Shown: positions 18,479 to 50,863 of the stretch, in pieces | Numbering within the stretch: the stretch's first letter is position 1 | Layout of the letters: each line of letters begins with the position of its first letter | From: a virus | Taxonomy: Duplodnaviria > Caudoviricetes | Length of the DNA stretch: 51,735 bases | Direction: 5' to 3' (one strand) | IMG/VR virus record: IMGVR_UViG_3300030329_001756 | Location: 1 to 51,735 of that record | The notes under the pieces: generated by a model | The model's input: the letters and a program-made list of their open reading frames with translations, nothing else | Databases searched by the model: none | Told to the model about the DNA's origin: nothing | Translations under genes and position numbers: made by a program

Positions 18479-18480
18479 AA

Positions 18481-18567: not shown

Positions 18568-18584
18568 AAAAAAGGAGCTAAACG

Positions 18585-19262: not shown

Positions 19263-19558
19263 AAATGGATAAAGATTATGTTGTTGTAACTTGTGTCTCA
19301 TCTTTCCGTGTGCGTTATGTCTTACACAAAGATGATTTGCAAAAGTTAAATCCAGATAAATCGTGTAATCCTATTGAATGGGCAAAAGATACTGTTACTT
19401 GTGAAGAGTGCGATGAGTTTTCTACAGAATATATAGGAGAACACATATATGACGCTGACCTTATTACAGAAGAACAAATGATAAACTTATTTGACCGAGA
19501 CAACTCGCATATTAAAAAATGGTCACGGGAACAAAAGATTAATTGGGTCAGAAAGTAA
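19259..19558 (+). CDS. hypothetical protein
   Basis: 99-aa coupled ORF. Confidence 0.65.
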   Translation: MKMDKDYVVVTCVSSFRVRYVLHKDDLQKLNPDKSCNPIEWAKDTVTCEECDEFSTEYIGEHIYDADLITEEQMINLFDRDNSHIKKWSREQKINWVRK

Positions 19559-19572
19559 GAAGGACAGTAAGA

Positions 19573-26863: not shown

Positions 26864-26868
26864 TATAT

Positions 26869-29895: not shown

Positions 29896-30432
29896 TTATA
29901 TTACTCCTTTTTCGGGTAAAGGCATAAAACCTTCAACTGCGTCTTCTTCTTTTATGTTTTTTAAAGAATCTTGTATTTTTCTATCTATTGCATCTGTCTC
30001 AGGATCAGTATACATATTTTTAGGTGCTAGTTTTTCTTGAATAGAAATCATTTCTTCATCATCAGGTTCTTCAAGTTCTAACATTTCATTAAAGATTTTA
30101 ATATTAGATACTTTAGGACTGACTATTTCAAATATTTTTAAAGCTACAGGAACATCTAACAGCATAGCTAAATCAGGATTAAAAGCTCCTTCATTAACTC
30201 CTTGTTTTGTTAAAATTTGAGCAATAGATTGTATAGAAACTCCAGAACTAACTGCTTTAACAAGATTTCTTTTTACTCTTTTTTTGTTTAAACCTTCAGC
30301 TATAGTATTAAACGCTTCTTTTAAATCTACAGTAGCTGGAGGTTTATCCATTGGTAATGAACCCGGTTCAAGCGCCCAACTTGATCCCGGTATAGATTCT
30401 GTCAGTAAATCAGTATCAAATTTTTCAATCAT
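29896..30432 (-). CDS. conserved virion-module protein
   Basis: IPGSSWALEPG..P.DKPP and FNPDLAMLL, typical of marine podoviruses. Confidence 0.6.
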   Translation of the reverse strand: MIEKFDTDLLTESIPGSSWALEPGSLPMDKPPATVDLKEAFNTIAEGLNKKRVKRNLVKAVSSGVSIQSIAQILTKQGVNEGAFNPDLAMLLDVPVALKIFEIVSPKVSNIKIFNEMLELEEPDDEEMISIQEKLAPKNMYTDPETDAIDRKIQDSLKNIKEEDAVEGFMPLPEKGVI

Positions 30433-30449
30433 ATCGCCACTTTCCTTTT

Positions 30450-30938
30450 TTATGTATATTCACTTAAAGCTTGAAAGAATTTTAAAGGGTCTTCTTGTTC
30501 TTTTTTAAATCTATCTTCAAAATAACGATGATCAAAATTTTCATAATCTTCAGCAGCTAAGTCACCAGAACCTTCATCAATGGTTTCGTTAAATTCTTTA
30601 AAGCTTTCTATATAATCATCTTGAATAGCCTGCATAACTGCTGGACTTACTTGACCTTTAATACTTTTAGCAACTTGACTCCAATTAGTTTCTCCTAAAA
30701 TATCTTGAAGCTCTTCGTACACATCACCTTCAGCATCAACTTCTTCTGCTAAAGTTTCTTGCGGTCTTTCAATAAAAGGTGTTCCTGCTTCTTCTGTGAG
30801 AGCATCGCGCCGTCGTCCTGATCTATCTATAGCACGATCAATAGCGGTAAATTCTCTTCCTTGACCGGATTCTTGACCTTTTTTGTTCATAGAACTCATA
30901 ATCGCGCTTGCTGCAATAGTCGCTATGGTTGCCCACAT
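30450..30938 (-). CDS. putative small ejection/pilot protein
   Basis: MWATIATIAASAIMSS hydrophobic N-terminus. Confidence 0.55.
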   Translation of the reverse strand: MWATIATIAASAIMSSMNKKGQESGQGREFTAIDRAIDRSGRRRDALTEEAGTPFIERPQETLAEEVDAEGDVYEELQDILGETNWSQVAKSIKGQVSPAVMQAIQDDYIESFKEFNETIDEGSGDLAAEDYENFDHRYFEDRFKKEQEDPLKFFQALSEYT

Positions 30939-30976
30939 AATGTATTCCTTCTATTAGTTAAGTTAATTAACATTAC

Positions 30977-33313
30977 CTAATCCTTACCTAGATTTTTCAA
31001 CACACTACCTAAAACTGTAGTAGCAATGCTTCCTAATAATGATCCTGTAGCTCTCTTATCAGCAGCACTTAATTGAATGTCTACCAATTCTTTTTCAAAC
31101 TGTTGATTAAGAACAGTTAAAGCTGTTTGTTGCGCTCTAGCTTTTGCATTCTCTGTAGCTGTAAAAGCTTGTGCAGCATCATCTCTAAATTTTTGCCACA
31201 TTTCTTCTTGAGCCTTAACAGTTATGCCTAATAAGGTAGCTGCATTTTGTTGATTAGCTTTATTTTTCTCTGCTGTATTAGCAGTATTAATAGTTCTTCT
31301 CCACGTAGCATTAGACTGCTCAATTTGTAAAGCTAAATTAGCGTTAAATTTTTCTCTTGAATCTCTCATTTTAGAGTTATATTGAGCTACAGCTAAATCT
31401 TGATTTGAATTAAACTGTTGATTAGCAGTATCTCTAGCTTTATTTTCTAAGTCTACTGAAGTAGATAGTTGATCATAAAATTGATTCACTTGATTTTCAG
31501 AAGTAGCGTTAAATTGCTTTCTAGCGTTTTCAGCAGCTTGATCAGTGAATAAAGATTGCACTTGACTTTGATGATTTAATGTGTTCATAGCCTGTTCGTT
31601 TTCAACATTTGTTAGATTCATCTGTAAAAACGATTGAGCATTTTGTTGTGCAGCTTTCATTCTGTTGTCAAGATTTTGACGATCCATAGCAGCGATAGTA
31701 GCAGCGTTAGCTAAAGCAGTTTGTTGTTCGTTGTTAAGATTTTGAATTTGAAGCGTTGCAGCTTTTTGAGCAACATCAGCAGCAATAGGTATAGCTGATT
31801 CCATAAGACCTTGTGCTACTGCCGCAGCAGCCATACTGGAAGCACCTAAACCTCTTTGGTTCATAAGTTCGTTTACTTTACGAACTGTAGGTGACGCCCA
31901 CGGTGGGAATTTGCCTGTTTCAATACCTTCAGTTAACTTTTCAATCTGATAAGCTGTAGAAGCTTCTTGAGCTAGTTCTTGTGTTTTAGCTTCAGCAAGA
32001 CTGCCTCTTTCAAACATTTCTGTTCTTGTACGTTCGTCTACGACCTGATTAGGATCAATGACATCCTTAGAAGTAATATTTCCTTGTACAGCTTCAGCAG
32101 TAGGAAGGCTTGAATACGTTCTTTCTATATTATCAACAACAGAAGCCTCAGACGTATCAGCTACAGCATCAGTATACGTAGTGGCAGTAGGATCACCAAT
32201 ATCTACTGTTGATGGTTTTCTTGATCCGTCATTAGGATCAACTGGTTTTCGCGTCAAAAGTCCTTTATTACCGACATCAACATCAGGATAAACTGGTGGG
32301 TACTTAATCGGTTGAAATCTCTTACCTGTTGATAGTGCGCCGGGACCCCTTAAAAGTTCATTAGTTTGAACTTTTTGATCTTCAGGCGTATACAGCATCT
32401 CAATACCGCTGGTATCAATTCCTGTAACATTGCCATCTTCATCTACAATAGGTTTACCAGCTTTACCTGTTTGTGTAATAATATTAGGAATACCAACAGC
32501 TTGAGTACCCTTAATATCAATAATTGGTTTATTAATTACATTAGGGTCATTAGTTTTTGGCTGAATAACTCTAGGGTCTTTTGGTTCAGTATCTACTTCA
32601 TTTATATTAGATGTGTCTGACACGTTTTGATTCCCTGTATTAGTTGGTGGTTTATATTTTGTAACAGATTCTTTTGGTCCTGAAATACCTTTATAGGCAG
32701 GATTTTTTACTTGTCGTGTTTTTTTGACGGTAGTATGTTTACGCCCTTCTTTTTTACCGTGTCTTTGATAATGCAGATGAGGACGTGATCCAAAGTACCA
32801 ATCATTAGCTATGTCTGGATTTTGTCTAAGGTACTCAGCCGCATCAAATTCTCCGGTATCGTATTCTTCTTCAATAAACTCTGGTTCAGACGGTTCTACT
32901 GGCTTTTGAGGTTCAGGTTGCGGTTCAGGTTCAGTAGGATATTCGTATTGACCTGAGTACACTTGAGATACAGAACTTTTAGGATCAATAAGAGTGGGTT
33001 GAGTTTTAGATTCAGAAGGTTTACCGTCTTGACTTGAATTTAAGTTATACTGCTCAATTTGTGAAACTAAATCAGTGTTAATTTTTCCTGATCCTTGTTC
33101 CATTTGTTTTGTTAGATTAGCATTAAAATCTGATCTACGTTTATCCCAAGACTGCCAAGCAGGATTAGATACTTGTTCTGTTCTTTGTTTAGTGACCATT
33201 TCTTGATCACCGCCCGCCGTTTGTTCCTGTTCTTGATATGAAACTTGCTTATTAATAGTTTTAGGAGGTTCTGGCTCCGTAAACATAGTAGTTCCAAAAA
33301 GAGGTGTACTCAT
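30977..33313 (-). CDS. putative internal virion protein
   Basis: PPWAS..RGLGASSMAAAA..MESAIPIA; Asn/Gln/Ala-rich helical C-half. Confidence 0.65.
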   Translation of the reverse strand: MSTPLFGTTMFTEPEPPKTINKQVSYQEQEQTAGGDQEMVTKQRTEQVSNPAWQSWDKRRSDFNANLTKQMEQGSGKINTDLVSQIEQYNLNSSQDGKPSESKTQPTLIDPKSSVSQVYSGQYEYPTEPEPQPEPQKPVEPSEPEFIEEEYDTGEFDAAEYLRQNPDIANDWYFGSRPHLHYQRHGKKEGRKHTTVKKTRQVKNPAYKGISGPKESVTKYKPPTNTGNQNVSDTSNINEVDTEPKDPRVIQPKTNDPNVINKPIIDIKGTQAVGIPNIITQTGKAGKPIVDEDGNVTGIDTSGIEMLYTPEDQKVQTNELLRGPGALSTGKRFQPIKYPPVYPDVDVGNKGLLTRKPVDPNDGSRKPSTVDIGDPTATTYTDAVADTSEASVVDNIERTYSSLPTAEAVQGNITSKDVIDPNQVVDERTRTEMFERGSLAEAKTQELAQEASTAYQIEKLTEGIETGKFPPWASPTVRKVNELMNQRGLGASSMAAAAVAQGLMESAIPIAADVAQKAATLQIQNLNNEQQTALANAATIAAMDRQNLDNRMKAAQQNAQSFLQMNLTNVENEQAMNTLNHQSQVQSLFTDQAAENARKQFNATSENQVNQFYDQLSTSVDLENKARDTANQQFNSNQDLAVAQYNSKMRDSREKFNANLALQIEQSNATWRRTINTANTAEKNKANQQNAATLLGITVKAQEEMWQKFRDDAAQAFTATENAKARAQQTALTVLNQQFEKELVDIQLSAADKRATGSLLGSIATTVLGSVLKNLGKD

Positions 33314-34137: not shown

Positions 34138-34365
34138 CTATATCCGTTGCGCGGCAGCAGCGGCATCGCGCTGCGCTCTATTTAAATAATCGCTACTGTC
34201 TTTAGCCTCGTCGTAGGCAGCCGCCCAGCGAGATACTTTCGCTTCAAGCCGCGCTGCCGCCTCAATTTCGGTCGCGCATGAGGCGAGATTATGCACGCAC
34301 CATGCGTCAGGATCGACCACTATATGCTCTAGAACATCACGTTGTCTTTGTGTCAAGTTTATCAT
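34138..34365 (-). CDS. hypothetical protein (tail-tip chaperone candidate)
   Basis: GC-rich; ATG (MINLTQ) overlaps the fiber stop codon. Confidence 0.55.
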   Translation of the reverse strand: MINLTQRQRDVLEHIVVDPDAWCVHNLASCATEIEAAARLEAKVSRWAAAYDEAKDSSDYLNRAQRDAAAAAQRI

Positions 34366-36962
34366 GCTACTAGCTCCCCGCTGAACCAACTCACCAATCC
34401 GCCAACACCGTAAACACCCTCATCATCGCTGGCGCTTCCCGTCGCCTCAACTTCGATGTAGGCTGTGTCCGAAGCATCCATATCGCACAACACGCTGTTT
34501 CCAGCGGTCATTCCGGCAGCACCGCCAGCCCCGGTGCCCAATACGGAGAGATCGAAGGTTCGGTTCGATGTGACCAAAAATACGTTGAATCGGGTCGCGC
34601 CGCCATCATTAGCCCATCGAACTGAGGCAGAAAAACGATACCGGCCTGTTACCGGCGCGGTGAATATGCCACTGCTGTTATTGTAATCTGCGTTCTGATC
34701 GAAAATTTCCGAATTAAATACAATGGTTACGTTTGTACCGTTGCCTGTGATGCTAAGTTGGTTTGTGGTCAGTTCAGCCAAAAATGCGGGCTGGCTGGGC
34801 ATTGTAATCTCGCCAGCGGAACTGATCGACATGCGCTCTGCCGCAGCAACACCGGCACCACTGTTGGTGTAAAACCTGAGTTTAGTGCTGCCACCGCCGC
34901 TGTACGACATCAAATTGACGTTACCACCGCTATCTGGCTGGATATAAAATCCGTATTGACCGCCGGGAGTCGTATCCACACCAGCACCAGTGCTTCGCAC
35001 AAGAACTTGACCGTTAACGTCAAATTTTGCGTCAGAGTCTGGCGAACTGGTGCCAATCCCAACATTGCCCGACGAATCTATGCGGAGTCTTTCAGAGGCA
35101 TTAGTAACAAATCGCATAGAGTTGCCGCCGTGATCGTAATTGATTCCGGCTACATCGTTATCATCAGGATCACCAAAAACGATGCTTGCCAGTTGATCAT
35201 TCGGAGTTAGAATAGAAAGACCGGCAAATCCACTATTTTCGATAATTAATTCATCTGCGTTTGCATTGGCCGTGACAGACCCAGCAGATGCGTTGTGAAT
35301 ATGTACTTTGCCGTCTGGGGCTGTTGTGCCAACCCCTAACGTAGCCGCTCCACCTAAGATTAAATCATCCGTCGAGGCATCCCAGAGCATGTATGCACTA
35401 GCCGTATCTCCAAAGAATTTAACGTCGTAGCCAGTATCATCTACACCAACAGTAACTGTATTATCGATTTGAACAGCACCATCTATATCAACGGCATCTA
35501 GATTAGTTGTGCCATCAATATCTGCATTACCTGATATATCTAGTGTTGTAGCATCTAATTCACCAGCTACAGTTAGAACACCGCTTGTAAGAGTTAGAAG
35601 ATCAGTATCAGAAGTATGACCTATAGTTGTTCCATTAATGATAACATTATCAACCGTAAGAGTTGTGAGTGTTCCAAGAGAAGTAACATTGCCTTGAGCC
35701 GCTGTAGCAAGTGTACCAGCAATTGTACCGCCTGAAACATTGATACCAGCACTAAATACTGGTATCTGATTCATTGTCACAACACCGCCACTAGAGATAG
35801 CTATTGCATCTGTGTCAGAAGCAGAACCAATATTACCAGCATCAGGAATAACAATGTTACCGCCAGTAGTCATCAAACCACCACCAGTGTAAGTTCCGCT
35901 TACATCTAGGTTGGCATTAACATCTACCAAAGTTGCGTTCAGTTCGATTTCATCTGTAGCATTAATGTCTAAAATAGTTGCGGAAGGAGCATTAATATAT
36001 TGAGAAGCGTCATTAAACTGAAGTGCCATTGTACTATTTAGAAGTAACCCAGTATCAGCAACGTGAGTTAAGGTAACATCACCATCGTCACCAAAATGAA
36101 TTACTGCTGCATCACTATCAAGATATAAATCATCTCCAAGTGTTAAATCTGAACTGAATACTGGCGTTTGACTAAAAGTAACAACACCACCAGATGAGAT
36201 GGCTATGGCATCCGTATCAGAAGCAGAACCAATATTACCACCATCAGGAATAACAATGTTACCTCCAGTAGTCATCAAACCACCGCCAGTATAGGTGCCA
36301 CTTACATCAAGGTTAGCGTTTACATCCATTAAAGTAGCATTTACTTCAACTTCATCTGTAGCGTTTATATCCAGAACAGTAGCAGAAGGAGCGTTGATAT
36401 ATTGAGAAGCATCGTTAAACTGAATAGCCATTGTGCTGTTTAACAGTAATCCAGTATCAGCAACGTGGGTTAGTGTTACATCATTATCTGCACCAAATCC
36501 TAATACAGCGGCATCGCTGTTAAGTTTTAAATCATTACTTACAAGAACTGCTGTAGATGCGTTAAGATCAATAGTAGCTTCACCATCGATAGTAAGAACA
36601 CCATCTGAACTTTGATGAATAAACGAAGCAGTATCTCCAAACATAATCTTTTCTGTAGAATTAATAAGAATATCGTCGGAGAATTTAAAATAGTCTTCAT
36701 CTTCCATCCAGTAAAGAACACCATCGTTTGATTCGCCATCAAACGTAATGGTAATATCTGTTCCAGAAGTACCAGCACCAAACGTAAGAGTATTACTTAA
36801 AAGTTTAGCAATTGCTCCACCTTCACCGGCAGTACCATCATGTGAGTGTCCACTTGTTCCAAACGCTGCTAAAATAGCATCAAATTCATCATTTGAATCA
36901 TCAGCATTAATAGTATCGCCTTGTGTGTAACTACTTTGTCTAGCTGAATAAGCTGTACCCAT
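34362..36962 (-). CDS. tail fiber with internal duplication and C-terminal C1q-like domain
   Basis: N-terminal EFDAI..AF..GHSHDG, GNVGIGT repeats, PAF...FTAPVTGRYRF...WFSGEL. Confidence 0.85.
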   Translation of the reverse strand: MGTAYSARQSSYTQGDTINADDSNDEFDAILAAFGTSGHSHDGTAGEGGAIAKLLSNTLTFGAGTSGTDITITFDGESNDGVLYWMEDEDYFKFSDDILINSTEKIMFGDTASFIHQSSDGVLTIDGEATIDLNASTAVLVSNDLKLNSDAAVLGFGADNDVTLTHVADTGLLLNSTMAIQFNDASQYINAPSATVLDINATDEVEVNATLMDVNANLDVSGTYTGGGLMTTGGNIVIPDGGNIGSASDTDAIAISSGGVVTFSQTPVFSSDLTLGDDLYLDSDAAVIHFGDDGDVTLTHVADTGLLLNSTMALQFNDASQYINAPSATILDINATDEIELNATLVDVNANLDVSGTYTGGGLMTTGGNIVIPDAGNIGSASDTDAIAISSGGVVTMNQIPVFSAGINVSGGTIAGTLATAAQGNVTSLGTLTTLTVDNVIINGTTIGHTSDTDLLTLTSGVLTVAGELDATTLDISGNADIDGTTNLDAVDIDGAVQIDNTVTVGVDDTGYDVKFFGDTASAYMLWDASTDDLILGGAATLGVGTTAPDGKVHIHNASAGSVTANANADELIIENSGFAGLSILTPNDQLASIVFGDPDDNDVAGINYDHGGNSMRFVTNASERLRIDSSGNVGIGTSSPDSDAKFDVNGQVLVRSTGAGVDTTPGGQYGFYIQPDSGGNVNLMSYSGGGSTKLRFYTNSGAGVAAAERMSISSAGEITMPSQPAFLAELTTNQLSITGNGTNVTIVFNSEIFDQNADYNNSSGIFTAPVTGRYRFSASVRWANDGGATRFNVFLVTSNRTFDLSVLGTGAGGAAGMTAGNSVLCDMDASDTAYIEVEATGSASDDEGVYGVGGLVSWFSGELVA

Positions 36963-42055: not shown

Positions 42056-43429
42056 CTATTTATTTTTTCTTGCAGCAGCCCAACGCATAGTGTTTATCTT
42101 TTTTAGTCCGTTATCAGTAAATCCTATATCAACATGTATTCCAGTACCATGTTCAAAGTCTTTAGTGATTAAGTAATCTTTGTTTTCTTCAAGACCGTAA
42201 TTATTTTTAAGTTTTTTTATTAGGTCTTTCGTATATTTTTTATAATCTTTTACTTTGTTTGTTTTATATGTAAAATCAAGTTTAGTTCCTCTTAGATGTC
42301 TACTGGGTGGTTTCCCTGCTTTTTTTCGATCATCATAATAAGAACCATGATGAAATTTATCATTTTGTGCAGTAACTCTACCAAATTTATTAGGTAAACT
42401 TTTTTGAATTTCACCAGCCATCCAAGTAACATCAGGATCGTTATATCTTCCCAGATCAATAGAATCTGTACCTAAATAATCTTTATCCCACTTTTTTTGT
42501 CCACCTTTAAATGCTTGACCACCTAACCGAGATAATTCAGAATAGTATTTTACGCCTAAATCTCTTAGAGTTTTATCTCCAAATTTTTCTGTTTTAACTC
42601 TTAAATCTAAAACTGATTCTGGAAGTATGTCCATAATATCAACATTAAGTTCTTTCTCTTCAAATTCACCTGTTTTCCAAGAACCCGGATTGTGTTCAAC
42701 AGAGACTAACTGTTTTTCTATGTCAGTAGGTAGTTCCACAAATCCTCCTTCATCAAATTTTAACTTCAACCTTGCATAACCTTCTTTATTTCCTCCAGAA
42801 GTAGAAGCTCCTATAGATGCTTCTCCGCGATTATTAAGAAATTTACGTTTTAATTCAGCACGATACGTATTTTTAGGTTTTCCGTGTGGTGGCATTACTT
42901 TTTCAGCACCTACGCTACCAAAATAATCTCCAAAATTTTTACCAACATTAAAATCATACTTTTTTTGACCTGATGGATTTTCTTTTTCAAAACCTAAATC
43001 TAAAGTACCGTCTTCTAAAAATTTTAAACCTAATCTGCCTTTTAAAGAACTTCCCTCTCTTTTAGATTTAAACCAAGCATTAGTAAAATTTTCATTTCCT
43101 TTAACATATTCTATTAACAATTTTTCAACATCATTTTCACGATCAGAAGGTACATTATATTCTGCCATTAAACTATTTACAGCACGTTTTACAGTTTCTT
43201 CATAATCATTAACTTTAAATGTTTCTTTTCCAGACGATCTTCCTGCTTGTCCTTGAATACTTCCTTTTCCTACAGGAATTTTAATTCCTACACTAACATC
43301 ATATTTATTTTTCTTTGTACTAAAAGGTCTAGATTCAGATGGTGCTTTATGTTTTGATCCGTATCTATAATTAAATCTTGGAATAAAAAGAGGTTTATCT
43401 TGAGCTACTAAATCACCATCTTTATAGGC
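42056..43429 (-). CDS. -1 frame extension: beta-barrel-like region plus peptidase M15-like domain
   Basis: Frame is open for 87 codons upstream of ATG 43168 with no start codon; SRHLRGTKLD...IHVD Zn motif. Confidence 0.7.
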   Translation of the reverse strand, partial: AYKDGDLVAQDKPLFIPRFNYRYGSKHKAPSESRPFSTKKNKYDVSVGIKIPVGKGSIQGQAGRSSGKETFKVNDYEETVKRAVNSLMAEYNVPSDRENDVEKLLIEYVKGNENFTNAWFKSKREGSSLKGRLGLKFLEDGTLDLGFEKENPSGQKKYDFNVGKNFGDYFGSVGAEKVMPPHGKPKNTYRAELKRKFLNNRGEASIGASTSGGNKEGYARLKLKFDEGGFVELPTDIEKQLVSVEHNPGSWKTGEFEEKELNVDIMDILPESVLDLRVKTEKFGDKTLRDLGVKYYSELSRLGGQAFKGGQKKWDKDYLGTDSIDLGRYNDPDVTWMAGEIQKSLPNKFGRVTAQNDKFHHGSYYDDRKKAGKPPSRHLRGTKLDFTYKTNKVKDYKKYTKDLIKKLKNNYGLEENKDYLITKDFEHGTGIHVDIGFTDNGLKKINTMRWAAARKNK

Positions 43430-44121
43430 TTTTTTTTTACAAGACCTCCACCTCTCATATCCAAAGTCTGTTTTTCCATAGTCTTTGTAGGAGGTTGTAA
43501 AGGATTGTTAAAACCGGGATTGTCCACATTACCAACACCTTGCATTGGAACGTATCCACCGCCTTTCATCATAGGCATAGCTGGTGCTTGTTGAGGCATA
43601 GCTAGTGCTTCTTCAGGCAATTCTTCTTGCGGAGGAATTTCAGGCATTGCAGCACCTAAACCTTCAACATCCTCGCTTGGTCTTTCCATGAACCCGTCAT
43701 TTCTTCCTGCTTCAAGTTGCGCTCTAAATTCTAATCCTTTTTCACGTAAAGCATTCAAAACGTCCATTCCTATGTACGGAATCAGTTCTTGAGGAACACG
43801 ATATTCATAATTAGAGATTTGAATAGGAACTTCATCTTGTGGATCAATTTCTTCTACTTGTATATCATCCTGTTCAGCAGCAGAAGCAGCTTCAAGAATC
43901 ATATTGTTTATTTCTTCAAATCCTACAAACAGAATAGTCTCGTAAGGAAGGATAAAATCACCTTCTTTAGCAGTAGCAGAAACATCGTCTTCCATAGATG
44001 CTACACCCTCATCAGGTAAAGCACCTTCAGCTTCATTCACCATTCCCGGTTCTAAAGCATCCCCTTCTAATAAGGGCGCTGGCGGTGCATTCATCATTTC
44101 TGGTCTGTCCATTAGTGCCAT
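43408..44121 (-). CDS. acidic head-module protein ending at a slippery site
   Basis: Repeated DDVSATAKEGDFILP / DEVPIQISNYEYRVP units; GTA AAA AAA AAG near the end. Confidence 0.75.
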   Translation of the reverse strand: MALMDRPEMMNAPPAPLLEGDALEPGMVNEAEGALPDEGVASMEDDVSATAKEGDFILPYETILFVGFEEINNMILEAASAAEQDDIQVEEIDPQDEVPIQISNYEYRVPQELIPYIGMDVLNALREKGLEFRAQLEAGRNDGFMERPSEDVEGLGAAMPEIPPQEELPEEALAMPQQAPAMPMMKGGGYVPMQGVGNVDNPGFNNPLQPPTKTMEKQTLDMRGGGLVKKKPIKMVI

Positions 44122-45653: not shown

Positions 45654-45884
45654 TTACTTATCACCTTTCCATTTAGAATCTGCTTCAACCGACACCTTGA
45701 GGCTGATCAGTGTTTCCAGCAAAGCCAGCTTCCCCTGCAATCGGCGCATCTCCAATTCCGATTCCGCCACCACCAGTTGCCGCTGCATCATTTGGGCCAA
45801 CTGTTTGAGGTACTCCTCCAGCGGCTCCCATAGCTGGGGGTTGCTGACCAGCGGGAGAAGGTTCTTGGCCTGTTGGTTGTGCAT
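45654..45884 (-). CDS. small conserved protein downstream of portal
   Basis: W..LEEYL...EMRRLQGK..LLETL. Confidence 0.65.
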   Translation of the reverse strand: MHNQQAKNLLPLVSNPQLWEPLEEYLKQLAQMMQRQLVVAESELEMRRLQGKLALLETLISLKVSVEADSKWKGDK

Positions 45885-47751
45885 TTATACCTCTCAAAAT
45901 ATCTGCGAAAATAGCTGCGTCATTTACGTCGTTAACAAGCAAATCAGGATCAATATCTTGACTGATAGCAAGTTCTTTTATAAGGTTTGGAATCTTGATG
46001 AACGGAGCAAGCATTGGGTTTGAAATAGTCTGAAGAAGCGTAGTAAGACGCTGACTACGTACTTCCTTTTGAACTACTGCGCTTGTTCCTCTTGGTTTAA
46101 TTTCAAGGTCACCGTGTATTTCAGGCATGTAAGTATTGAACTGCATGTTCCATTGAAAGTACGATTCTCCAAGAGGCTTGAGAAGAAAATCATCAATGTT
46201 CTTGATAACAGTCTTGATGCTTAATCCTGCGCTGGACATAAGCATACTTAAACCAGCAGCAGTTCTTCCTGTTCCTGTAACACCTGTCTGCCCGTGCATG
46301 ATACTTGGAATACCAGTTTGTTCGTCAGCAAGTTGCCTTGCCTTGTCGTACATCTGAATATTTTCTCCAGCAGTATTAGGAAACTTGATGCCGTTAATAG
46401 CTGTTCCTGTTACACCAGATTGCCTTCTAAAAACTTTACCGGGAAACACATCATAAGATTGTCCCGGTACAAGTTGAGCTTCGTCAATGTCAAAAACAAG
46501 ATTACCAGCTAAAGCAAGATTGTCAATAGCCATTCTTACGTGACCGTTCATCAACAGTTGACTATCTTCCATGTTTTCCGCAACACCTACACCAAAAATT
46601 TGATAAGGATTAAGTTCAAACGGAAACGAGTAGTACGGAAGCCTAGTAGGAAGAAATGGATTAGAAACTATTCTAAGAATTTCTTCACCACAAACCCAAA
46701 CATTTACCTGAACAGATCGTCCCGAATCCTCCGATACTTCGAGGCCAGCTTCTCGTGCAAGTGCCGTATCCATAATACCCCAGTATTCCAATACCTCATA
46801 ACGGTTTTTCTCATTAGTAGTATCCTTTTCATTATTGTACAAAGTACTTTCAAAATAGCGTTCTTGATAGTTTGGACCTTCCTCAAGAACTCGCTTAATA
46901 GCATCTTCATCGAATAAAGGACGGTTAAGAAGATCACGTAATTGCTCCCTGTTAAATCTGTGTCTTTCGATAACATATTCACAATCATTGATAGAGGTAG
47001 CAGAAGGATCAGGATAAAAATCCCAACAGCTAACGGAGCTTAAACGAGGAACAGTCTTTTCGTAAGGCTGGTATTGTTTCTCGTCTTCAGGACTACCTTC
47101 TTCTGGAATTGCCCAGTTGTGTACTGTCTTGCTATAGTTAAACGGTCCTTTTACAACACCAGTACCTAATAAGGAACACTCAAACAACGAGTGCCTCATA
47201 ATAGTTACTGCGTTAGTGTCTAAAAGTTGATCTTGAATGCACTTCTCCATATAACGTGCGGATTCTCTTGATGGAGATATTTGAGGTTGATTAGGAACTT
47301 TAGCTACACCCTCTTCTAAATTAGCTCCTTCGTACTTTTCACTTAAACCACCAAGCGGAGTAGCTTGTGTAGCACCCGGCAAAAGCTCTCTGCCGTCACC
47401 GGGAAAACCGTAAGGGTCTTCAGTTTCAGGTTGTTGAGGTTGTTGTGAAAGATGAGCAAACTCAGCAATACCTTCAGGAACAGGTGTAGATTCCACAGAG
47501 ATAGGAAATTTGTTCTGTGAAAATAAAATATCTACAATCTGTCCGTAAGCAGCAAGTACTTTTGTCTTTGTAATCTTGATAAAGACTTTACTACGCTCGT
47601 TATCACGGTATTGTGTTGTAGAGTCGTAGATACCACGATAGTTTTTATAGGCTTTAAGCCAGCGTTCTTCATCAGGTCTACGCCCTGTCTCAGCGTCCAT
47701 AAACCTTGATTTTACTAAGCCTACCAGCCTATATTCTTCGTATTCATCCAT
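45685..47751 (-). CDS. portal protein
   Basis: EERWLKAYKNYRG, FIKITKTKVLAAY, WDFYPDP, GVGVAENMED, RTAAGLSMLM. Confidence 0.88.
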   Translation of the reverse strand: MDEYEEYRLVGLVKSRFMDAETGRRPDEERWLKAYKNYRGIYDSTTQYRDNERSKVFIKITKTKVLAAYGQIVDILFSQNKFPISVESTPVPEGIAEFAHLSQQPQQPETEDPYGFPGDGRELLPGATQATPLGGLSEKYEGANLEEGVAKVPNQPQISPSRESARYMEKCIQDQLLDTNAVTIMRHSLFECSLLGTGVVKGPFNYSKTVHNWAIPEEGSPEDEKQYQPYEKTVPRLSSVSCWDFYPDPSATSINDCEYVIERHRFNREQLRDLLNRPLFDEDAIKRVLEEGPNYQERYFESTLYNNEKDTTNEKNRYEVLEYWGIMDTALAREAGLEVSEDSGRSVQVNVWVCGEEILRIVSNPFLPTRLPYYSFPFELNPYQIFGVGVAENMEDSQLLMNGHVRMAIDNLALAGNLVFDIDEAQLVPGQSYDVFPGKVFRRQSGVTGTAINGIKFPNTAGENIQMYDKARQLADEQTGIPSIMHGQTGVTGTGRTAAGLSMLMSSAGLSIKTVIKNIDDFLLKPLGESYFQWNMQFNTYMPEIHGDLEIKPRGTSAVVQKEVRSQRLTTLLQTISNPMLAPFIKIPNLIKELAISQDIDPDLLVNDVNDAAIFADILRGINAQPTGQEPSPAGQQPPAMGAAGGVPQTVGPNDAAATGGGGIGIGDAPIAGEAGFAGNTDQPQGVG

Positions 47752-48095: not shown

Positions 48096-50639
48096 TTACT
48101 CGCCCATAAGAGCGGACATTTGATCTTGATAATTTTTAGCTTGACGTTCTAAATCAGCATTCTCAATATCTTTAATACTTCTTATTCGTTCATCTTCTAA
48201 AGAAGAATAATCTTCTTCAGTGTATCTGTGTTCACCTTCTTGATATGTTGGCTCAGTTTCAGCTATATTTCTCCATTGACTTACGGCACCTGTAGAAATA
48301 CGTGCTGGATCAGGTTTTATGTACTTGTCTCGTAATCCTTCAAACAAACTTCTTTCATCTACATCCGTTTCACGTTCTGATAAAGGTCTTTGAGAAATTA
48401 TGTCTTGTAATTCTGCTAAGTATCCTTCTTCATCTCTAGGTGGAAGGTCTGCAATCTCTTGTTGAAAAAGGTTTCTGTCAATACTTTGATCAACAAATTG
48501 ACCAACAGTAGGACGTTCTGGTAAAGGCATATTTGCTTTTGCTACAGGCGTTGCTGAAGTTAACATTTCAAGTGCTACATCAGCACCTAAAACAGCAGGA
48601 CCAGCAATTGCACTTTTAGGTATTTTACCAAGTAATTTATAAATTTGTTTTAATTTATCTCTTCTAGAAAAATCGACTCTGCCTTTATGAACGCCTTCCT
48701 TTATTCTTTTAGAAGCTAAATCTGCTTTTGATCTAGCTTCTTCTAACATTGAAGACATATCAGGATACCTTAAACTAGGTTCCATAAGACCTTTTTCATT
48801 TAAAAATCCGTTGGTATCAAGCCAAGCTGATAATCCTTTGCTATCTTTAATATTATGATCTGGGCCTGTTAAAATAGTTGTTAAAAGTTGAGCCTGTTCT
48901 CTATCATCTAAATTATTTTCTAAATCAAGTTCTGGAGCTATCTTTTTTAAAGCTTCAAAAACTTTATCTGTTTTATTTAATTCGGTTGCAACTTTTATTT
49001 TATCGTTAGATGTAGCTCCTTCACCACTACCTAAATCAAAATCAGATTCGGCTTCTCGTAATGGTACAGGAAATTCATCAGCATCAGATATAGCTTGTCT
49101 GTCAACATTATCTATAAGAGGAGTAGGAGATTTTACTGGTTCTGATGGCGCATCATCAGGAGGTTTAAATTTTATGTTTAATTTTTCAGCTATCTGACCT
49201 TTATTATTTACTCCTAAATGAACTCCTAGATTATTTTCAAATTGTTTTGTAATTTCAAAAGGCGTTACTCTGGAGAAACTTCTTATATAGCTTTTAGTTG
49301 TTACGTTACTGCCTTGACTGTCAGCATGTTCTAAAAGCATATCTGCTACTATTTTTTTATCAATTTTAGAACCATTTTGATCTTCAATATCAGTATTGTA
49401 TGCAATAACAGAAGCACCTATTTTTCTTAAAACTGAATGATCATCTGCTTTTCTTCCTAAAATTCGATTATACTCACTTCCAACGTCTGTTAACGGACCA
49501 GCTACTTTCTTCATTACTTTAGTAACATCTTGTGTTGTTAAATTTCCAAATACTTTACCTTTTCTTCGTTTTCCTTGATGAAAAGCTAAATCTTTAAACA
49601 TATTTTGCTGAGAAGTAGTTAATCGTATAGTTCCTTGTTGTTTCTTACCTTGTGAACCGGGAAATACAATTTGTGTAAAATCATCATTTAAATAAGGAGC
49701 GATACTTACTCCTTCAGGTTTACTGCTAAGAATATTTAATAAGTGTGTTGCTCGTATGGGCAGTTGACTGTTAATATAAATAGCAGATTTAACTTGTTTT
49801 TTAGTTCCATTTATCTTTAAACCACCCTTTTTAAAATTAGCGTTATCTACTCCCTCCATAATGTTGCTCATAAGAGTAGAATATTCGTCTAAAGTTAAAG
49901 GATAATGGATTGCTTTTCTACTTTGCCCTCTTGCTTGATCAGACAATCCTCTAGTAATCCAATGAAATAAAGTCTTTTGTTTTTTTCCTGCTGATTCTCT
50001 AAGACCTATTTCCATAGAGTTCCAGTAAGTTTTAAAATTTTGAGCCTTTTTACCTTCTCCTAAAAGCGGTATAGGGTCTTCTTCATCTATTGCCATATCT
50101 TGAAGACCAAGAAAAGTATTTAAGTCAAGTTTTTCTTGAAAACCATCTCCTTTTAAAACATTGTCTAATTCCTGTCGTTCTAAAACTTGACTTGTAAAAG
50201 ATTTGAAATTGTTTAATATTGTTTCAGGAGTAGGACTAAATCCTGATGCTTTATCTCCTGTAATATTAATTGGTTTAGAAACCAATTTAAAATGATCTCT
50301 GATTAATTCATATTCTTTGACGTAATCACTTCCTTCTTTTACACCCTCTTTAACAAAATCATTATGATATTCTGGATTACCTATTGTTATACCTCTTTTT
50401 ATTAAAGAAAGTATAGAAGCTTCTCTTAAAGTAATCTGGTCAGGAGTTCTAAGTGCTTTATCTAACAAATTTTTCTTTACTGTATCATTAAATTCACTTT
50501 CTCCTAAATTATCAAGATAAGGATCAATAATAAGTGTTTTTAATTCTTTTAATTGTTTGCCAAAACTATCAGTATCTAACAACGAAACACCACCACCAGA
50601 TGCGTATCCTTTAACTTGTTTTTCTACGAAACCTACCAT
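48096..50639 (-). CDS. large protein with a central tyrosine-recombinase-like domain
   Basis: LPIRATHLL, HSVLRKIGAS, MLLEHAD and TTKSY in canonical order; likely start MVGFVEKQ. Confidence 0.6.
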   Translation of the reverse strand: MVGFVEKQVKGYASGGGVSLLDTDSFGKQLKELKTLIIDPYLDNLGESEFNDTVKKNLLDKALRTPDQITLREASILSLIKRGITIGNPEYHNDFVKEGVKEGSDYVKEYELIRDHFKLVSKPINITGDKASGFSPTPETILNNFKSFTSQVLERQELDNVLKGDGFQEKLDLNTFLGLQDMAIDEEDPIPLLGEGKKAQNFKTYWNSMEIGLRESAGKKQKTLFHWITRGLSDQARGQSRKAIHYPLTLDEYSTLMSNIMEGVDNANFKKGGLKINGTKKQVKSAIYINSQLPIRATHLLNILSSKPEGVSIAPYLNDDFTQIVFPGSQGKKQQGTIRLTTSQQNMFKDLAFHQGKRRKGKVFGNLTTQDVTKVMKKVAGPLTDVGSEYNRILGRKADDHSVLRKIGASVIAYNTDIEDQNGSKIDKKIVADMLLEHADSQGSNVTTKSYIRSFSRVTPFEITKQFENNLGVHLGVNNKGQIAEKLNIKFKPPDDAPSEPVKSPTPLIDNVDRQAISDADEFPVPLREAESDFDLGSGEGATSNDKIKVATELNKTDKVFEALKKIAPELDLENNLDDREQAQLLTTILTGPDHNIKDSKGLSAWLDTNGFLNEKGLMEPSLRYPDMSSMLEEARSKADLASKRIKEGVHKGRVDFSRRDKLKQIYKLLGKIPKSAIAGPAVLGADVALEMLTSATPVAKANMPLPERPTVGQFVDQSIDRNLFQQEIADLPPRDEEGYLAELQDIISQRPLSERETDVDERSLFEGLRDKYIKPDPARISTGAVSQWRNIAETEPTYQEGEHRYTEEDYSSLEDERIRSIKDIENADLERQAKNYQDQMSALMGE

Positions 50640-50641
50640 AA

Positions 50642-50863
50642 TCAGCAATCAAACTTCTTATACAGTACTTCCATTCTTGCAGCATCCAGTTCAGCACTAG
50701 GAACAGCAGAATCAGTTTTCTTTTTTGTGTAATTGGTATCGTTATACGGATAAGGTCTTTCTTCACCCGTATCGTAAGGATTGAAGTTAAAGTTGTTCAA
50801 GCTTGTACCAAAAGAATGAATCATAAAAGGAATGTGGTGCGTAGTAGTTTTTTTCTTAGCCAT
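50642..50863 (-). CDS. hypothetical protein
   Basis: 73-aa coupled ORF. Confidence 0.6.
   Translation of the reverse strand: MAKKKTTTHHIPFMIHSFGTSLNNFNFNPYDTGEERPYPYNDTNYTKKKTDSAVPSAELDAARMEVLYKKFDC

What the first reader, a model, noticed from the sequence alone, without database searches (positions are those of the whole stretch)
42056..43400. Frameshift payload resembles an outer-membrane beta-barrel followed by a peptidoglycan peptidase
Seen: a series of alternating amphipathic strands (PRFNYRYG, KYDVSVGIKIP, GSIQGQAG, SLKGRLGLKF, TLDLGFEKE, KYDFNVGKNF, TYRAELKRKF, EASIGAS) ends in GYARLKLKF. That resembles the C-terminal-Phe beta-signal of OMPs and directly precedes the shared DEGGFV motif. 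A domain with SRHLRGTKLD...GIHVD follows, matching the peptidase M15/LAS Zn ligands H-x6-D...H. There is no signal peptide. Inference: a virion-delivered module that perforates the outer membrane and cuts peptidoglycan during entry, possibly released by cleavage at the GG motif. No standalone endolysin was recognised in the window.
Basis: inference. Interest (0 to 1): 0.72.

Follow-up and report, generated by a model that had tools for sequence, protein, structure and literature searches.

The report
Frameshift-attached cell-wall peptidase in marine phage
A marine phage seems to hang a zinc-type cell-wall-cutting enzyme onto one of its head proteins by a programmed slip of the reading frame, probably to open the host wall at infection, while the idea that the piece in front of the enzyme is an outer-membrane barrel remains unproven.

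Summary
The window is a 97%-complete HMO-2011-type marine podophage. The C-terminal 196 residues (42059-42646) fold confidently (pLDDT 84.6). Their only consistent structural neighbours are LAS/M15 zinc peptidases: LysECD7 Z 6.9, ChiX 6.3, Hedgehog about 5.8. H404, D411 and H458 are invariant in 26 of 26 aligned relatives. No Pfam, PHROG or PDB sequence model detects the domain, so it is a new LAS-like family. Relatives carry a lytic transglycosylase or a lysozyme-like domain at the same position. The domain also occurs inside 690-3900-aa phage or secretion-system proteins beside other wall hydrolases. The gene joins the upstream 237-aa head-module gene through an A9 run containing A_AAA_AAG. 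An 87-codon start-less open stretch, an A10 in-frame variant and two natural in-frame fusions support the join. The beta-barrel claim is untested: the model has pLDDT 40 and OMP-like hints are sub-threshold. Cleavage at the GG motif is also untested. Verdict: virion-delivered wall peptidase, a new variant of a known kind.

The parts
43408..44121 (-). 237-aa acidic, Pro/Gln-rich head-module protein (zero frame). It would form the N-terminal 231 residues of the fusion. It carries two GGG[YL]V motifs.
   Evidence: ORF. It lies between the portal (45685-47751) and the scaffold and capsid genes. Homologues occupy the same position in 6 viral contigs. omega is 0.31 against L004. Pfam and PHROGs give no hit.
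43429..43438 (-). A9 run followed by G. It holds the slippery heptamers A_AAA_AAA and A_AAA_AAG (43429-43435) in the zero frame, and is the site of a -1 ribosomal slip or of RNA-polymerase slippage.
   Evidence: Sequence. A9 is kept in the window, L003, L004, L006 and L009; L007 has A10 and an in-frame fusion. The run is absent or broken in the payload-less L005 and L008. A DNA contig from another study (X4) crosses it without an indel. No stimulatory RNA fold lies downstream (z +0.56).
43169..43429 (-). 87-codon start-less open stretch in the -1 frame (AYKDGD...AVNSL), read only in the fusion.
   Evidence: There is no ATG/GTG/TTG before 43168. Shuffles stay open in 3 of 20000. L004 has a colinear stretch with 54 of 87 residues identical and an in-frame 6-nt indel. 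omega there is 2.9, so purifying selection is not shown. ATG 43168 has no SD-like motif, although many other genes have one.
42758..43168 (-). Module of about 137 residues: three predicted helices followed by about seven amphipathic beta strands, ending ...GYARLKLKF.
   Evidence: Shared at 69-71% identity with P0003, P0004 and P0005, which carry other catalytic domains. The AF2 model has pLDDT 40.3, so only the secondary-structure pattern is usable. omega is 0.83 against L004.
42737..42757 (-). Junction motif FDEGGFV at the border between the beta module and the enzyme.
   Evidence: F-[DQ]-x-G-G is present at the same border in P0003, P0004, P0005, P0006 and P0036, and at the N-terminus of HMO-2011 gp49. 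The motif class occurs 4 times in 39 window proteins against 0.12 expected; 0 of 2000 shuffles reach 4.
42059..42646 (-). LAS-like (Hedgehog/DD-peptidase fold) putative zinc peptidoglycan peptidase domain. Candidate ligands are H404 (42296-42298), D411 (42275-42277) and H458 (42134-42136). The stop codon is at 42056-42058.
   Evidence: AF2 gives pLDDT 84.6, above 90 over most of the domain. The representative search found 31 hits, 29 of them through this domain.

Best explanation
The stretch encodes the C-terminal extension of a head-module protein of an HMO-2011-type marine podophage. Most ribosomes finish the 237-aa protein. A minority shift to the -1 frame at the A9 run (A_AAA_AAG), or read an mRNA that gained one A by polymerase slippage. 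They then make a 688-aa fusion: the 237-aa N-part, an 87-residue linker, a helix-plus-beta module, the FDEGGFV junction, and a LAS-type zinc peptidase. The N-part is inferred to carry a few copies of the fusion into the procapsid. At infection the fusion would leave the head with the other internal proteins, and the peptidase would cut peptide stems or cross-links of the host peptidoglycan locally, letting the short tail's channel cross the wall.

Shown: the frame architecture, its recurrence in relatives, the fold and the invariant H/D/H, and exchange of the catalytic domain for glycosidase-type wall hydrolases. Inferred: the frameshift product itself, packaging, ejection, enzyme activity and bond specificity. 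The role of the beta module is open.
For: (1) Fold. The model has pLDDT 84.6. In the search of 48161 chains the top 11 rows are all LAS enzymes or Hedgehog: ShhN Z 5.8, VldE 5.6, 1lbu 5.1, LysB4 5.0, Ply500 4.8, VanX 4.7, T5 peptidase 4.4. In the second look at Foldseek's list the top 39 rows are all LAS: LysECD7 Z 6.9 with 113 of 125 residues aligned, ChiX Z 6.3. BFVD neighbours are named Peptidase or M15A.

(2) Motif. S-x-H-x-x-G-x-K-x-D followed by H-x-D; H149, D156 and H203 (domain numbering) are invariant in 26 of 26 sequences.

(3) Domain swapping. P0003 and P0005 have the same N-module plus a lytic transglycosylase (PDB 9udh, E 7e-7). P0004/L004 have the same N-module plus a T4-lysozyme-like domain, though weakly (Pfam E 0.032, PDB E 0.25).

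(4) Company. 22 of 29 family members are 690-3900 aa long. 9 of 26 scanned carry another wall-hydrolase domain (GH19, VgrG3_C, Phage_lysozyme2, CHAP, SLT_4), 7 of them above Pfam's cut-off. One has a tape-measure domain and one a spike OB domain.

(5) Fusion. The open start-less frame is far beyond chance. ATG 43168 lacks an SD-like motif. A9 is present in 5 payload loci, and L007 has A10 with the payload in frame. P0036 and P0037 are single ORFs whose first ~230 residues are 47% and 44% identical to the 237-aa protein and run straight on through KKK-ELNEGG into a payload.

(6) Position between the portal and the scaffold/capsid genes.
Against: No sequence model recognises the domain. Pfam finds 0 families at E <= 1, PHROGs 0, and PDB phmmer or profile searches find nothing relevant.

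Z scores are below 8, the range the tool itself calls 'middling', and Foldseek's best E-value is 0.1. The usual catalytic acid three residues before the last His (D/E-x-x-H) and the H-x-H motif are absent; H-x-D stands there instead.

The slip-to-ATG stretch shows omega 2.9 against L004, which is not purifying selection. No stimulatory RNA structure follows the slip site.

In L009 the -1 frame stops after 12 codons, and the transglycosylase has its own SD and ATG. In L003 the payload has its own ATG 21 nt after the stop. So payloads in this slot can be stand-alone genes.

There are no virion proteomics, and the 237-aa protein itself has no known family. The contigs from RNA libraries do not cross the A-run and may be DNA carry-over.
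Confidence: 0.6

Rival explanations
1. It is the phage's endolysin. A 370-aa protein is started at ATG 43168 and acts from within at the end of infection. The N-module serves as a wall-binding or membrane-active part, and the frame link to the upstream gene is incidental.
For: No other Pfam lysis enzyme was found in 40 window proteins or in the whole record. HMO-2011 has a separate lysozyme, gp56, which has no counterpart here. The nearest solved folds, LysECD7, T5, RB49, LysB4 and Ply500, are endolysins. In L009 the transglycosylase in this slot is a stand-alone gene with a strong SD. Gene callers start P0002, P0003 and P0004 at this Met.
Against: The gene sits inside the head-morphogenesis block. 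87 start-less open codons precede the ATG, and they are colinear in L004. The ATG has no SD-like motif. Natural in-frame fusions to the 237-aa protein exist. Most of the domain family sits in giant virion or secretion-system proteins, not in small endolysins. PHROGs label the 498-aa tail protein 'amidase', so the argument from absence is not airtight.
Confidence: 0.15
2. The beta-rich part is a true outer-membrane beta-barrel that is delivered from the virion, set free by cleavage at F|DEGG so that Phe becomes C-terminal, and perforates the outer membrane while the peptidase cuts the wall.
For: About seven to nine amphipathic strands are predicted. A terminal strand with alternating hydrophobics ends in Phe directly before [DQ]xGG in the window, P0003, P0004, P0005, P0006 and P0036. 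The nearest named language-model clusters are Porin_4, OMP_b-brl, IAT_beta and BCSC_C (also Attacin and Gloverin), at scores 0.78-0.84. The longer beta region of L003 gives Usher at E 0.0068, below the cut-off.
Against: The model has pLDDT 40.3, so no barrel can be claimed. It predicts three helices and an odd count of meander strands. Alternating polar and non-polar strands are equally typical of soluble sheets, and the polar faces here are very rich in Lys, Arg and Glu. No OMP family reaches threshold. The atlas scores lie in the range that a third of shuffled proteins reach. No protease is identified in the window, and there is no signal peptide. P0037 and L009 do without the module.
Confidence: 0.1
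3. The LAS-like domain is not a hydrolase. It could be a binding module, as Hedgehog's N-domain is used, or an effector with another target. Alternatively the gene is a decaying remnant that is not expressed.
For: The best Z scores include Hedgehog signalling domains. The canonical catalytic acid or His next to the third ligand is missing. omega is near or above 1 in the N-terminal parts.
Against: H, D, H, R122, N127 and D128 are invariant or nearly so across 26 sequences at 29-47% identity. The domain is exchanged for bona fide wall hydrolases. The reading frame is intact over 483 codons. Near-identical sequence is held in runs of 12 studies, and RNA-library contigs cover the payload.
Confidence: 0.07

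Closest known systems
Phage L-alanoyl-D-glutamate peptidases and relatives of MEROPS M15 / the LAS group (LysECD7 8q2g, T5 endolysin 8p3a, RB49 23ri, ChiX 5opz, Ply500 2vo9, LysB4 6akv, VanX/VanY/LdcB, Streptomyces DD-peptidase 1lbu)
   Same: Same core fold by structure search: Z 4.0-6.9, with 100-121 residues aligned. The order and spacing of the candidate zinc ligands match, H-x6-D then a C-terminal His, inside an S-x-H-x-x-G-x-x-x-D signature. That this signature is typical of VanY/M15 is recalled, not tested.
   Different: No HMM or profile match to any M15 Pfam family or PDB sequence. There is a conserved extra N-terminal part of about 70 residues with GGQAFxGG and R-x-TAQND-x-x-H motifs. 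H-x-D replaces D/E-x-x-H or H-x-H. The domain is embedded in virion proteins, not in small endolysins.
Ejection or internal virion proteins of short-tailed phages that carry a wall hydrolase (SU10 gp20; T7 gp16, recalled)
   Same: A wall-degrading enzyme stored in the head of a podovirus and released with the genome. The SU10 paper states that gp20-24 leave the head and that gp20 has transglycosylase activity (PMC9509320, passages read). This phage has an SU10-type portal and adaptor.
   Different: The enzyme is a peptidase, not a transglycosylase. The gene lies between the portal and the scaffold gene, not after the tail genes. It would be made as a frameshift extension of another protein. 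Virion presence is not shown here.
Programmed -1 frameshift extensions of phage structural proteins (tail chaperone G/GT, T7 capsid 10A/10B; recalled) and transcriptional slippage at A9/T9 runs (recalled)
   Same: An X_XXY_YYZ heptamer in the zero frame, an overlapping -1 ORF without its own start, and a long and a short product sharing an N-terminus.
   Different: The extension is an exchangeable enzyme cassette. No downstream stimulatory structure was found. An A9 run makes polymerase slippage an equal candidate. The product has not been observed.
Head-internal proteins with variable C-terminal cargo (MuF-domain polymorphic toxins, SPP1 gp7; recalled, not tested)
   Same: A gene next to the portal gene, and a conserved N-part with a C-terminal domain that differs between relatives. 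The payloads seen here are a peptidase, a transglycosylase, a lysozyme-like domain, an HExxH domain and a 100-aa domain.
   Different: No MuF/Phage_Mu_F match. Here the cargo is attached by a frame shift, and the payloads seen are wall hydrolases rather than toxins.
Small outer-membrane beta-barrels (OmpA/OmpX-type, usher, porins)
   Same: Runs of ~10-residue strands with alternating hydrophobic residues and a last strand ending in Phe. Weak look-alike scores.
   Different: No signal peptide, the Phe is internal, no family reaches threshold, no confident barrel model, and three helices lie within the module.

Membership tests
LAS / Peptidase M15 zinc peptidases | His-x(3-6)-Asp plus a downstream His as the zinc triad | tested here: met
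   H404-x6-D411 and H458 are invariant in 26 of 26 aligned sequences. The domain-only alignment of 29 segments shows the same.
LAS / Peptidase M15 zinc peptidases | Hedgehog/DD-peptidase fold | tested here: met
   The model has pLDDT 84.6. The top 11 rows among 48161 chains and the top 39 rows among 1000 are all LAS members, with Z up to 6.9. Z is moderate and Foldseek's best E-value is 0.1.
LAS / Peptidase M15 zinc peptidases | Match to a curated family model (Pfam Peptidase_M15, M15_2, M15_3, M15_4/VanY) | tested here: not met
   0 Pfam families at E <= 1 for the 483-aa translation. None appeared for P0006 or P0007 at E <= 1, nor for the 26 relatives scanned at E <= 0.001. Profile searches against PDB found nothing relevant.
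LAS / Peptidase M15 zinc peptidases | The three ligands converge on one site in 3D, and a catalytic acid or His lies beside the third ligand | not testable with these tools
   Model coordinates are not exposed. In sequence, H149 lies in a short helix, D156 in the next strand and H203 at the start of a strand. That this matches LAS topology is recalled. The usual D/E-x-x-H or H-x-H is replaced by H-x-D.
LAS / Peptidase M15 zinc peptidases | Zinc-dependent cleavage of a peptidoglycan peptide bond | not testable with these tools
   Needs a zymogram or muropeptide analysis.
Outer-membrane beta-barrel proteins | Closed barrel with an even number (8 or more) of membrane-spanning strands | tested here: inconclusive
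   The AF2 model of residues 27-290 has pLDDT 40.3. It shows strands at 18-22 and 43-53, seven strands in 129-225, and three helices at 76-125.
Outer-membrane beta-barrel proteins | Match to an OMP family model | tested here: not met
   None for the window protein. L003's longer region gives Usher at E 0.0068, 15.7 bits against a cut-off of 27.1. Atlas look-alikes score 0.78-0.84 only.
Outer-membrane beta-barrel proteins | N-terminal signal peptide and a C-terminal beta-signal ending in Phe | tested here: not met
   Neither the fusion nor the 370-aa form has a hydrophobic N-terminus. The conserved Phe is internal, followed by DEGGFV and 226 more residues; it would be terminal only after an unproven cleavage.
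Programmed -1 ribosomal frameshift / transcriptional slippage cassette | Slippery site in the zero frame, and a -1 ORF that overlaps it and has no start of its own | tested here: met
   GTA AAA AAA AAG. There are 113 codons without ATG/GTG/TTG, and open-frame statistics are.
Programmed -1 ribosomal frameshift / transcriptional slippage cassette | Conservation of the site and frame relation in relatives | tested here: met
   A9 with the payload in the -1 frame in the window, L003, L004 and L006. L007 has A10 and is in frame. P0036 and P0037 are in-frame fusions. Exceptions: in L009 the -1 frame is closed after 12 codons, and L003 has its own ATG. The loci are related, so they are not independent.
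Programmed -1 ribosomal frameshift / transcriptional slippage cassette | Downstream stimulatory RNA structure | tested here: not met
   The window's 80 nt downstream fold with z +0.56. L004 gives -1.94 and L006 -1.97, with no shared fold.
Programmed -1 ribosomal frameshift / transcriptional slippage cassette | Detection of the trans-frame product or of A10 transcripts | not testable with these tools
   The runs are held as contigs only, and no RNA-library contig crosses 43430-43438.

The most novel reading that the evidence does not exclude
The helix-plus-beta module is an OMP-like protein that the phage injects unfolded into the periplasm, the state in which the host's own barrel proteins reach the assembly machinery. 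Cleavage at the conserved F|[DQ]xGG junction would expose a C-terminal Phe beta-signal. The module would then be inserted into the host outer membrane, spontaneously or by the host's BAM machinery, and form or anchor the conduit, while the freed LAS peptidase opens the wall. The recurrent hydrophobic-x-[EG]-G-G-hydrophobic motif would be the processing or docking signal of a family of exchangeable head cargo.
Probability: 0.08. Interest if true: 0.85.

Novelty: new variant of a known kind. Interest (0 to 1): 0.6.

Why it matters
[quoted passage not shown] How they cross the envelope is not described in the papers consulted here.

This locus suggests a compact arrangement. One head gene has a slippery A-run, and behind it lies a slot where wall-cutting enzymes of different chemistry are swapped between close relatives: a LAS peptidase, a lytic transglycosylase, a lysozyme-like domain and an HExxH domain. 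That would give a dosed, virion-borne lysin without a separate packaging signal, and a visible arms-race hot spot (omega about 1 or higher).

It also defines a LAS-like peptidase family that curated libraries miss and that recurs in giant virion and secretion-system proteins. Such a family is useful for annotation and as a source of lysins active on Gram-negative walls.

Tried and rejected
Sequence-based naming failed. Pfam (E <= 1), PHROGs (E <= 0.01) and PDB phmmer gave nothing for the target. tblastn against 50,697 phage records gave no match. Profiles of A1 and A4 against PDB gave only irrelevant rows or none.

Foldseek against PDB gave no match at E <= 0.001, although its weak top rows were LAS enzymes.

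The N-part model was too poor (pLDDT 40.3) to send to a fold search, so none was run.

The protein atlas gave only viral 'hypothetical' clusters at 0.90 and weak named look-alikes.

dN/dS did not support coding constraint in the slip-to-ATG stretch (omega 2.9). I kept the coding reading on the open-frame statistics and the colinear L004 and P0036 sequences. BLASTP of P0036 against P0001 is not significant (E 0.16).

No conserved RNA stimulator was found.

A scan of viral contigs with the N-module alignment found nothing, and the metagenome scan found one locus.

tblastn of the 237-, 493- and 850-aa proteins against the HTVC033P and HMO-2011 loci gave no hit at 1e-3. Homology of these head-module proteins to HMO-2011 gp49 or HTVC033P gp75/76 is therefore only positional.

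The GG-type motif is not a feature of the C-domain family at large; only Gly-rich chance hits appear in the giant proteins.

Laid contigs could not show slippage, because no RNA-library contig crosses the A-run. The parts without cover say nothing.

The search of earlier findings returned nothing.

Literature: three full-text searches and term look-ups in two papers on HMO-2011-type phages found no mention of a frameshift, peptidase, endolysin or lysozyme in this gene block. Supplements were not opened, and the original HMO-2011 paper was not read.

Full report
CONTEXT

The window is the whole of a linear virus record of 51,735 bases, estimated 97% complete. Its portal (45685-47751, minus strand) matches Pfam SU10_portal at 2.6e-30 and is 56.8% identical to the portal of Pelagibacter phage HTVC033P. 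Further matches are HMO-2011-type phages of SAR11, SAR116 and Roseobacter hosts (38 records).

Nearly all genes are on the minus strand. Read along that strand, the order is:
- large terminase (cut at the window end),
- an 850-aa unknown ORF,
- portal,
- a 493-aa unknown ORF,
- a 237-aa unknown ORF,
- the target,
- scaffold-position protein (phrog_13678),
- major capsid protein (phrog_267, 1.3e-58),
- adaptor (SU10_adaptor), then tail genes and several very large proteins.

In HTVC033P and HMO-2011 the block between portal and scaffold holds only hypothetical proteins and no counterpart of the target.

THE OBSERVATION

The first possible start in that frame is the ATG at 43168, which gives a 370-aa ORF. 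The strings PRFNYRYG, KYDVSVGIKIP and GSIQGQAG lie upstream of it, in 113 codons that contain no ATG, GTG or TTG.

This frame is -1 relative to the 237-aa ORF (43408-44121). The two overlap at GTA AAA AAA AAG (A-run 43430-43438), which holds the heptamers A_AAA_AAA and A_AAA_AAG in the zero frame.

The open stretch is not chance. In the two off-frames of 21 genes of this phage, stops occur at 0.10 per codon and none of 2300 off-frame segments reaches 113 codons (the maximum is 111). Only 3 of 20000 shuffles of the 261-nt slip-to-ATG stretch stay open.

THE C-TERMINAL DOMAIN

Sequence libraries are silent on this domain:
- Pfam gives 0 families at E <= 1.
- PHROGs gives 0.
- PDB sequences give nothing relevant.
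- 50,697 phage records give no tblastn match.

An exhaustive HMMER search of 1.84 billion cluster representatives found 31 proteins at E <= 0.001. Of these, 29 match through residues ~288-475 of the translation and 2 match through the N-module. Of the 29, 22 are 690-3895 aa long.

I scanned 26 of the 31 with Pfam, leaving out P0004, P0005 and P0007 (scanned), the 92%-identical fragment P0008 and the 78-aa P0026. The results:
- 11 have a Pfam family at E <= 0.001.
- 9 carry another wall-hydrolase domain: Glyco_hydro_19, T6SS VgrG3-like_C (two proteins), Phage_lysozyme2 (four proteins, one also with CHAP), and SLT_4 (two proteins). Seven are above the curated cut-off; the two SLT_4 matches are below it.
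- One carries a tape-measure domain (PhageMin_Tail).
- One carries a spike OB domain (Phage_base_V).

The domain therefore keeps the company expected of a wall-cutting module carried on injected proteins.

A 26-sequence alignment (A1) shows these invariant columns: F78, G80, G81, N101, N127, D128, H149, G152, D156, H203 and G212. R122, H131, K154 and D205 are nearly invariant. Numbering is by domain; add 255 for the 483-residue translation. The motifs read GGQAFxGG, R-x-TAQND-x-x-H, S-x-H-x-x-G-x-K-x-D-F-T and HGTG-x-H-x-D.

AlphaFold2 on this alignment gave mean pLDDT 84.6 and pTM 0.79, with most of residues 33-228 above 90. Fold searches gave:
- Foldseek against PDB: nothing at E <= 0.001, but the weak top rows are LdcB/VanY, Sonic hedgehog, the RB49 peptidase and VanXYc.
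- Independent search of 48,161 representative chains: only LAS members in ranks 1-11. These are ShhN (Z 5.8, rmsd 3.2, 104 aligned), VldE C-domain 5.6, Hedgehog 5.2, Streptomyces Zn DD-peptidase 5.1, LysB4 5.0, Ply500 4.8, VanX 4.7, RB49 4.7, DacB 4.6 and T5 peptidase 4.4.
- Second look at Foldseek's best 1000 chains: LysECD7 endolysin first (Z 6.9, 113 of its 125 residues aligned), then ChiX (Z 6.3). All 39 top rows are LAS members.
- Viral predicted structures: one uncharacterised protein at E 3.4e-4, followed by entries named Peptidase or Peptidase M15A.

The Z scores are moderate, and the tool warns that values under 8 can be a common arrangement.
- One fold family fills the top of three independent lists.
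- A large part of the small target enzymes is covered.
- The invariant His, Asp and His sit at the places expected for the triad: helix, next strand, start of a late strand. That this is the LAS layout is recalled.

What I could not do is measure the site geometry, because coordinates are not exposed. The domain also departs from known M15 enzymes. It has no HMM match, it has a conserved extra part of about 70 residues in front, and H-x-D stands where D/E-x-x-H or H-x-H usually stands. It is best called a new LAS-like family. The bond it cuts cannot be told. The nearest solved enzymes, described as L-Ala-D-Glu peptidases in their PDB titles, are only a lead.

DOMAIN SWAPPING

The word-indexed search returned five relatives besides the protein itself.
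- P0003 and P0005 share the N-module (69-71% identity) up to F-D-E-G-G-F-V. They then continue into a lytic transglycosylase: P0005 against PDB 9udh gives E 7.2e-7; Pfam SLT is only at E 0.1.
- P0004 shares the N-module and continues into a domain with weak T4-lysozyme likeness (Pfam Phage_lysozyme E 0.032; T4 lysozyme E 0.25).
- P0006 and P0007 share the LAS-like domain behind other N-parts.

Three chemistries of wall hydrolase behind the same junction argue that the C-domain's job is to cut peptidoglycan.

THE LINK TO THE UPSTREAM GENE

Seven related loci were compared. The slot between the 237-aa gene and the scaffold gene is variable.

| Locus | A-run | What follows |
|---|---|---|
| Window | A9 | linker, N-module, LAS domain, in the -1 frame |
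| L004 | A9 | linker, N-module, lysozyme-like domain, in the -1 frame. No start before the same Met. Linker colinear with the window's: 54 of 87 residues identical and an in-frame 6-nt indel |
| L003 | A9 | -1 frame open, but the 654-aa payload (long beta-rich region plus LAS domain) has its own ATG 21 nt after the stop |
| L006 | A9 | a payload of about 100 aa in the -1 frame, beginning KKK-LNEGGIL |
| L007 | A10 | a near-twin of L006, with the same payload in frame as one 357-codon ORF |
| L009 | A9 | the -1 frame stops after 12 codons; a stand-alone transglycosylase follows with GGAGGTGG and its own ATG |
| L005, L008, HTVC033P | none, or a broken A7 | no payload |

A search for longer relatives of the 237-aa protein found P0036 (783 aa) and P0037 (560 aa). 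Both are single ORFs whose first ~230 residues are 47% and 44% identical to it. They run straight through ...GGLVKKK-ELNEGG... into a payload with an HEARH (HExxH) motif. P0036 has a beta-rich insert ending GFRSRFQDGG and P0037 lacks it.

Other points in favour of the link:
- The ATG at 43168 has no SD-like motif, while many genes of this phage show AAGGA or GGAG 6-12 nt upstream.
- An independent DNA contig from another study crosses the A-run without an indel. One contig of another run lacks one letter there.

Taken together, the fusion of the payload to the 237-aa protein is the designed product in this lineage. The A9 run is the device that makes it from two frames.

Points against or still open:
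- omega for the linker is 2.9 against L004. For comparison the N-module gives 0.83, the 237-aa gene 0.31 and the scaffold gene 0.13. Selection on the linker is therefore not purifying.
- No stimulatory RNA fold follows the site. That fits polymerase slippage on A9 as well as unaided ribosomal slippage.
- L003 and L009 show that payloads in this slot can also be free-standing genes.
- The loci are relatives, not independent trials.

THE BETA-RICH MODULE

With only six sequences, AlphaFold2 gave pLDDT 40.3. The secondary-structure pattern is two strands in the linker, three helices (residues 76-125 of the model) and seven meander strands (129-225). That model is too poor for a fold search or for judging closure.

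The remaining evidence is weak:
- Language-model look-alikes are viral 'hypothetical' clusters at 0.90.
- The nearest named clusters are Attacin_C, Gloverin, Porin_4 and IAT_beta for the window, and Porin_4, OMP_b-brl, DUF3769 and BCSC_C for P0006. They score 0.78-0.84, a range that shuffled proteins often reach.
- L003's longer beta region gives Usher at E 0.0068, below the cut-off.
- The last strand ends in Phe directly before [DQ]-x-G-G in all six versions seen.

The barrel idea is therefore neither shown nor excluded. An amphipathic sheet packed on the three helices explains the pattern equally well. P0037 and L009 show the module is dispensable for carrying an enzyme.

THE GG MOTIF

The pattern [DEKRS][GE]GG[FYLVI][VS] occurs four times in the window, all in unknown head-block proteins:
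- MMKGGGYV and DMRGGGLV in the 237-aa protein,
- YASGGGVS at the N-terminus of the 850-aa ORF,
- FDEGGFV in the target.

Shuffling 39 window proteins gives a mean of 0.12, and 0 of 2000 shuffles reach four. The motif was defined after seeing it. HMO-2011 gp49 begins ...ELFDEGGLLQEGG, and L006, L007, P0036 and P0037 have KKK-(E)LNEGG at the junction. The motif is not a feature of the giant proteins that carry the LAS-like domain. It marks module borders. Whether it is a cleavage site, a docking peptide or a recombination joint is unknown, and no protease was recognised in the window.

LYSIS GENES

No Pfam lysis-enzyme family was found in 40 window proteins, and PF00959 has no match in the record. 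PHROGs names the 498-aa tail-block protein 'amidase' (phrog_5107). That label traces to an unverified annotation of HMO-2011 gp44.

The endolysin reading of the target therefore stays alive, at about 0.15. The head-block position, the start-less linker and the in-frame fusions weigh against it.

EXPRESSION AND OCCURRENCE

Near-identical sequence is held by runs of 12 studies of marine metagenomes. Two RNA-library runs have contigs over 42750-43258 and 42515-43232, which reach 90 and 64 nt upstream of ATG 43168. These may be DNA carry-over, and none crosses the A-run. One DNA contig joins 42034 to 43429, skipping the whole payload exactly from the A-run. Its shorter side is only 24 letters, so it is a hint at a co-occurring payload-less form and no more.

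COMPARISON AND VERDICT

The arrangement works like the wall hydrolases that podoviruses store in the head. SU10 gp20 is the documented case (PMC9509320, passages read); T7 gp16 is recalled. The way it is made resembles the frameshift extensions of phage structural proteins (G/GT and 10A/10B, recalled). It differs in enzyme class, gene position, the exchangeable-cassette layout and the slip-dependent attachment.

It is not a member of any curated M15 family by sequence, but it meets the fold and ligand-pattern criteria of the LAS group. I rate it a new variant of a known kind, with interest 0.6.

My confidence in the main reading, a frameshift-attached and probably virion-delivered LAS-type wall peptidase, is 0.6. 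The boldest reading left open is an injected OMP-like module released at F|DEGG; I put it at about 0.08.

Three literature searches and look-ups in two group papers found no description of this arrangement. Supplements and the original HMO-2011 paper were not read.

Noticed in passing
window 48096-50648 (-): An 850-aa ORF (TTG start as listed) lies between the terminase and the portal and has no Pfam or PHROG hit. Its N-terminus carries the same GG-type motif (GYASGGGVSLL). HTVC033P has only four small ORFs at this place. It may be another head cargo protein.
   Followed up: partly
L006:4708-4716 vs L007:3044-3053: Two near-identical viral contigs differ by one A in the run (A9 vs A10). As a result, the ~100-aa payload is in the -1 frame in one and fused in frame in the other.
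   Followed up: partly
P0036, P0037 (proteins): Natural in-frame fusions of a 237-aa-protein homologue to a domain with an HEARH (HExxH) motif. P0036 has a beta-rich insert bounded by NEGG and QDGG motifs and P0037 lacks it. Pfam finds no family.
   Followed up: partly
window 42034/43429 joint, run X5: One DNA contig skips 1394 bases, exactly from the A-run to just past the payload's stop. This suggests a co-occurring payload-less form. Only 24 letters lie on the shorter side.
   Followed up: no
window 43583 (-), and L003:415-560: The Pro/Gln-rich AMPQQxP repeat region of the 237-aa protein varies in copy number. Run X4 has a 21-nt insertion, and L003 has extra repeats.
   Followed up: no
window 43169-43429 and 42758-43168: Pairwise omega against L004 is 2.9 for the linker and 0.83 for the N-module, compared with 0.13 for the scaffold gene. 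This could be diversifying selection or relaxed constraint in the payload.
   Followed up: partly
window 18402-20250 (+): A plus-strand island in an otherwise minus-strand genome. It holds tRNA-Met, tRNA-Leu(TAA), a pentapeptide-repeat protein (Pfam 6.3e-40) and an ORF with a weak HNH hit. Local GC is 0.44. A third tRNA, Arg(TCT), lies at 12501-12577 (-).
   Followed up: no
window 34362-36962 (-): The 866-aa tail-fibre-position protein ends in a C1q domain (Pfam 3.1e-09).
   Followed up: no
window 21476-33313 (-): Three very large proteins (1795, 1008 and 778 aa) follow the tail genes and have no family above threshold. By position they may be the classical internal or ejection proteins. No wall-hydrolase domain was detected in them.
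   Followed up: no
window 2001-4000: GC rises to 0.505, against about 0.35 elsewhere, over a DUF932 protein (2740-3885, Pfam 2.5e-34).
   Followed up: no
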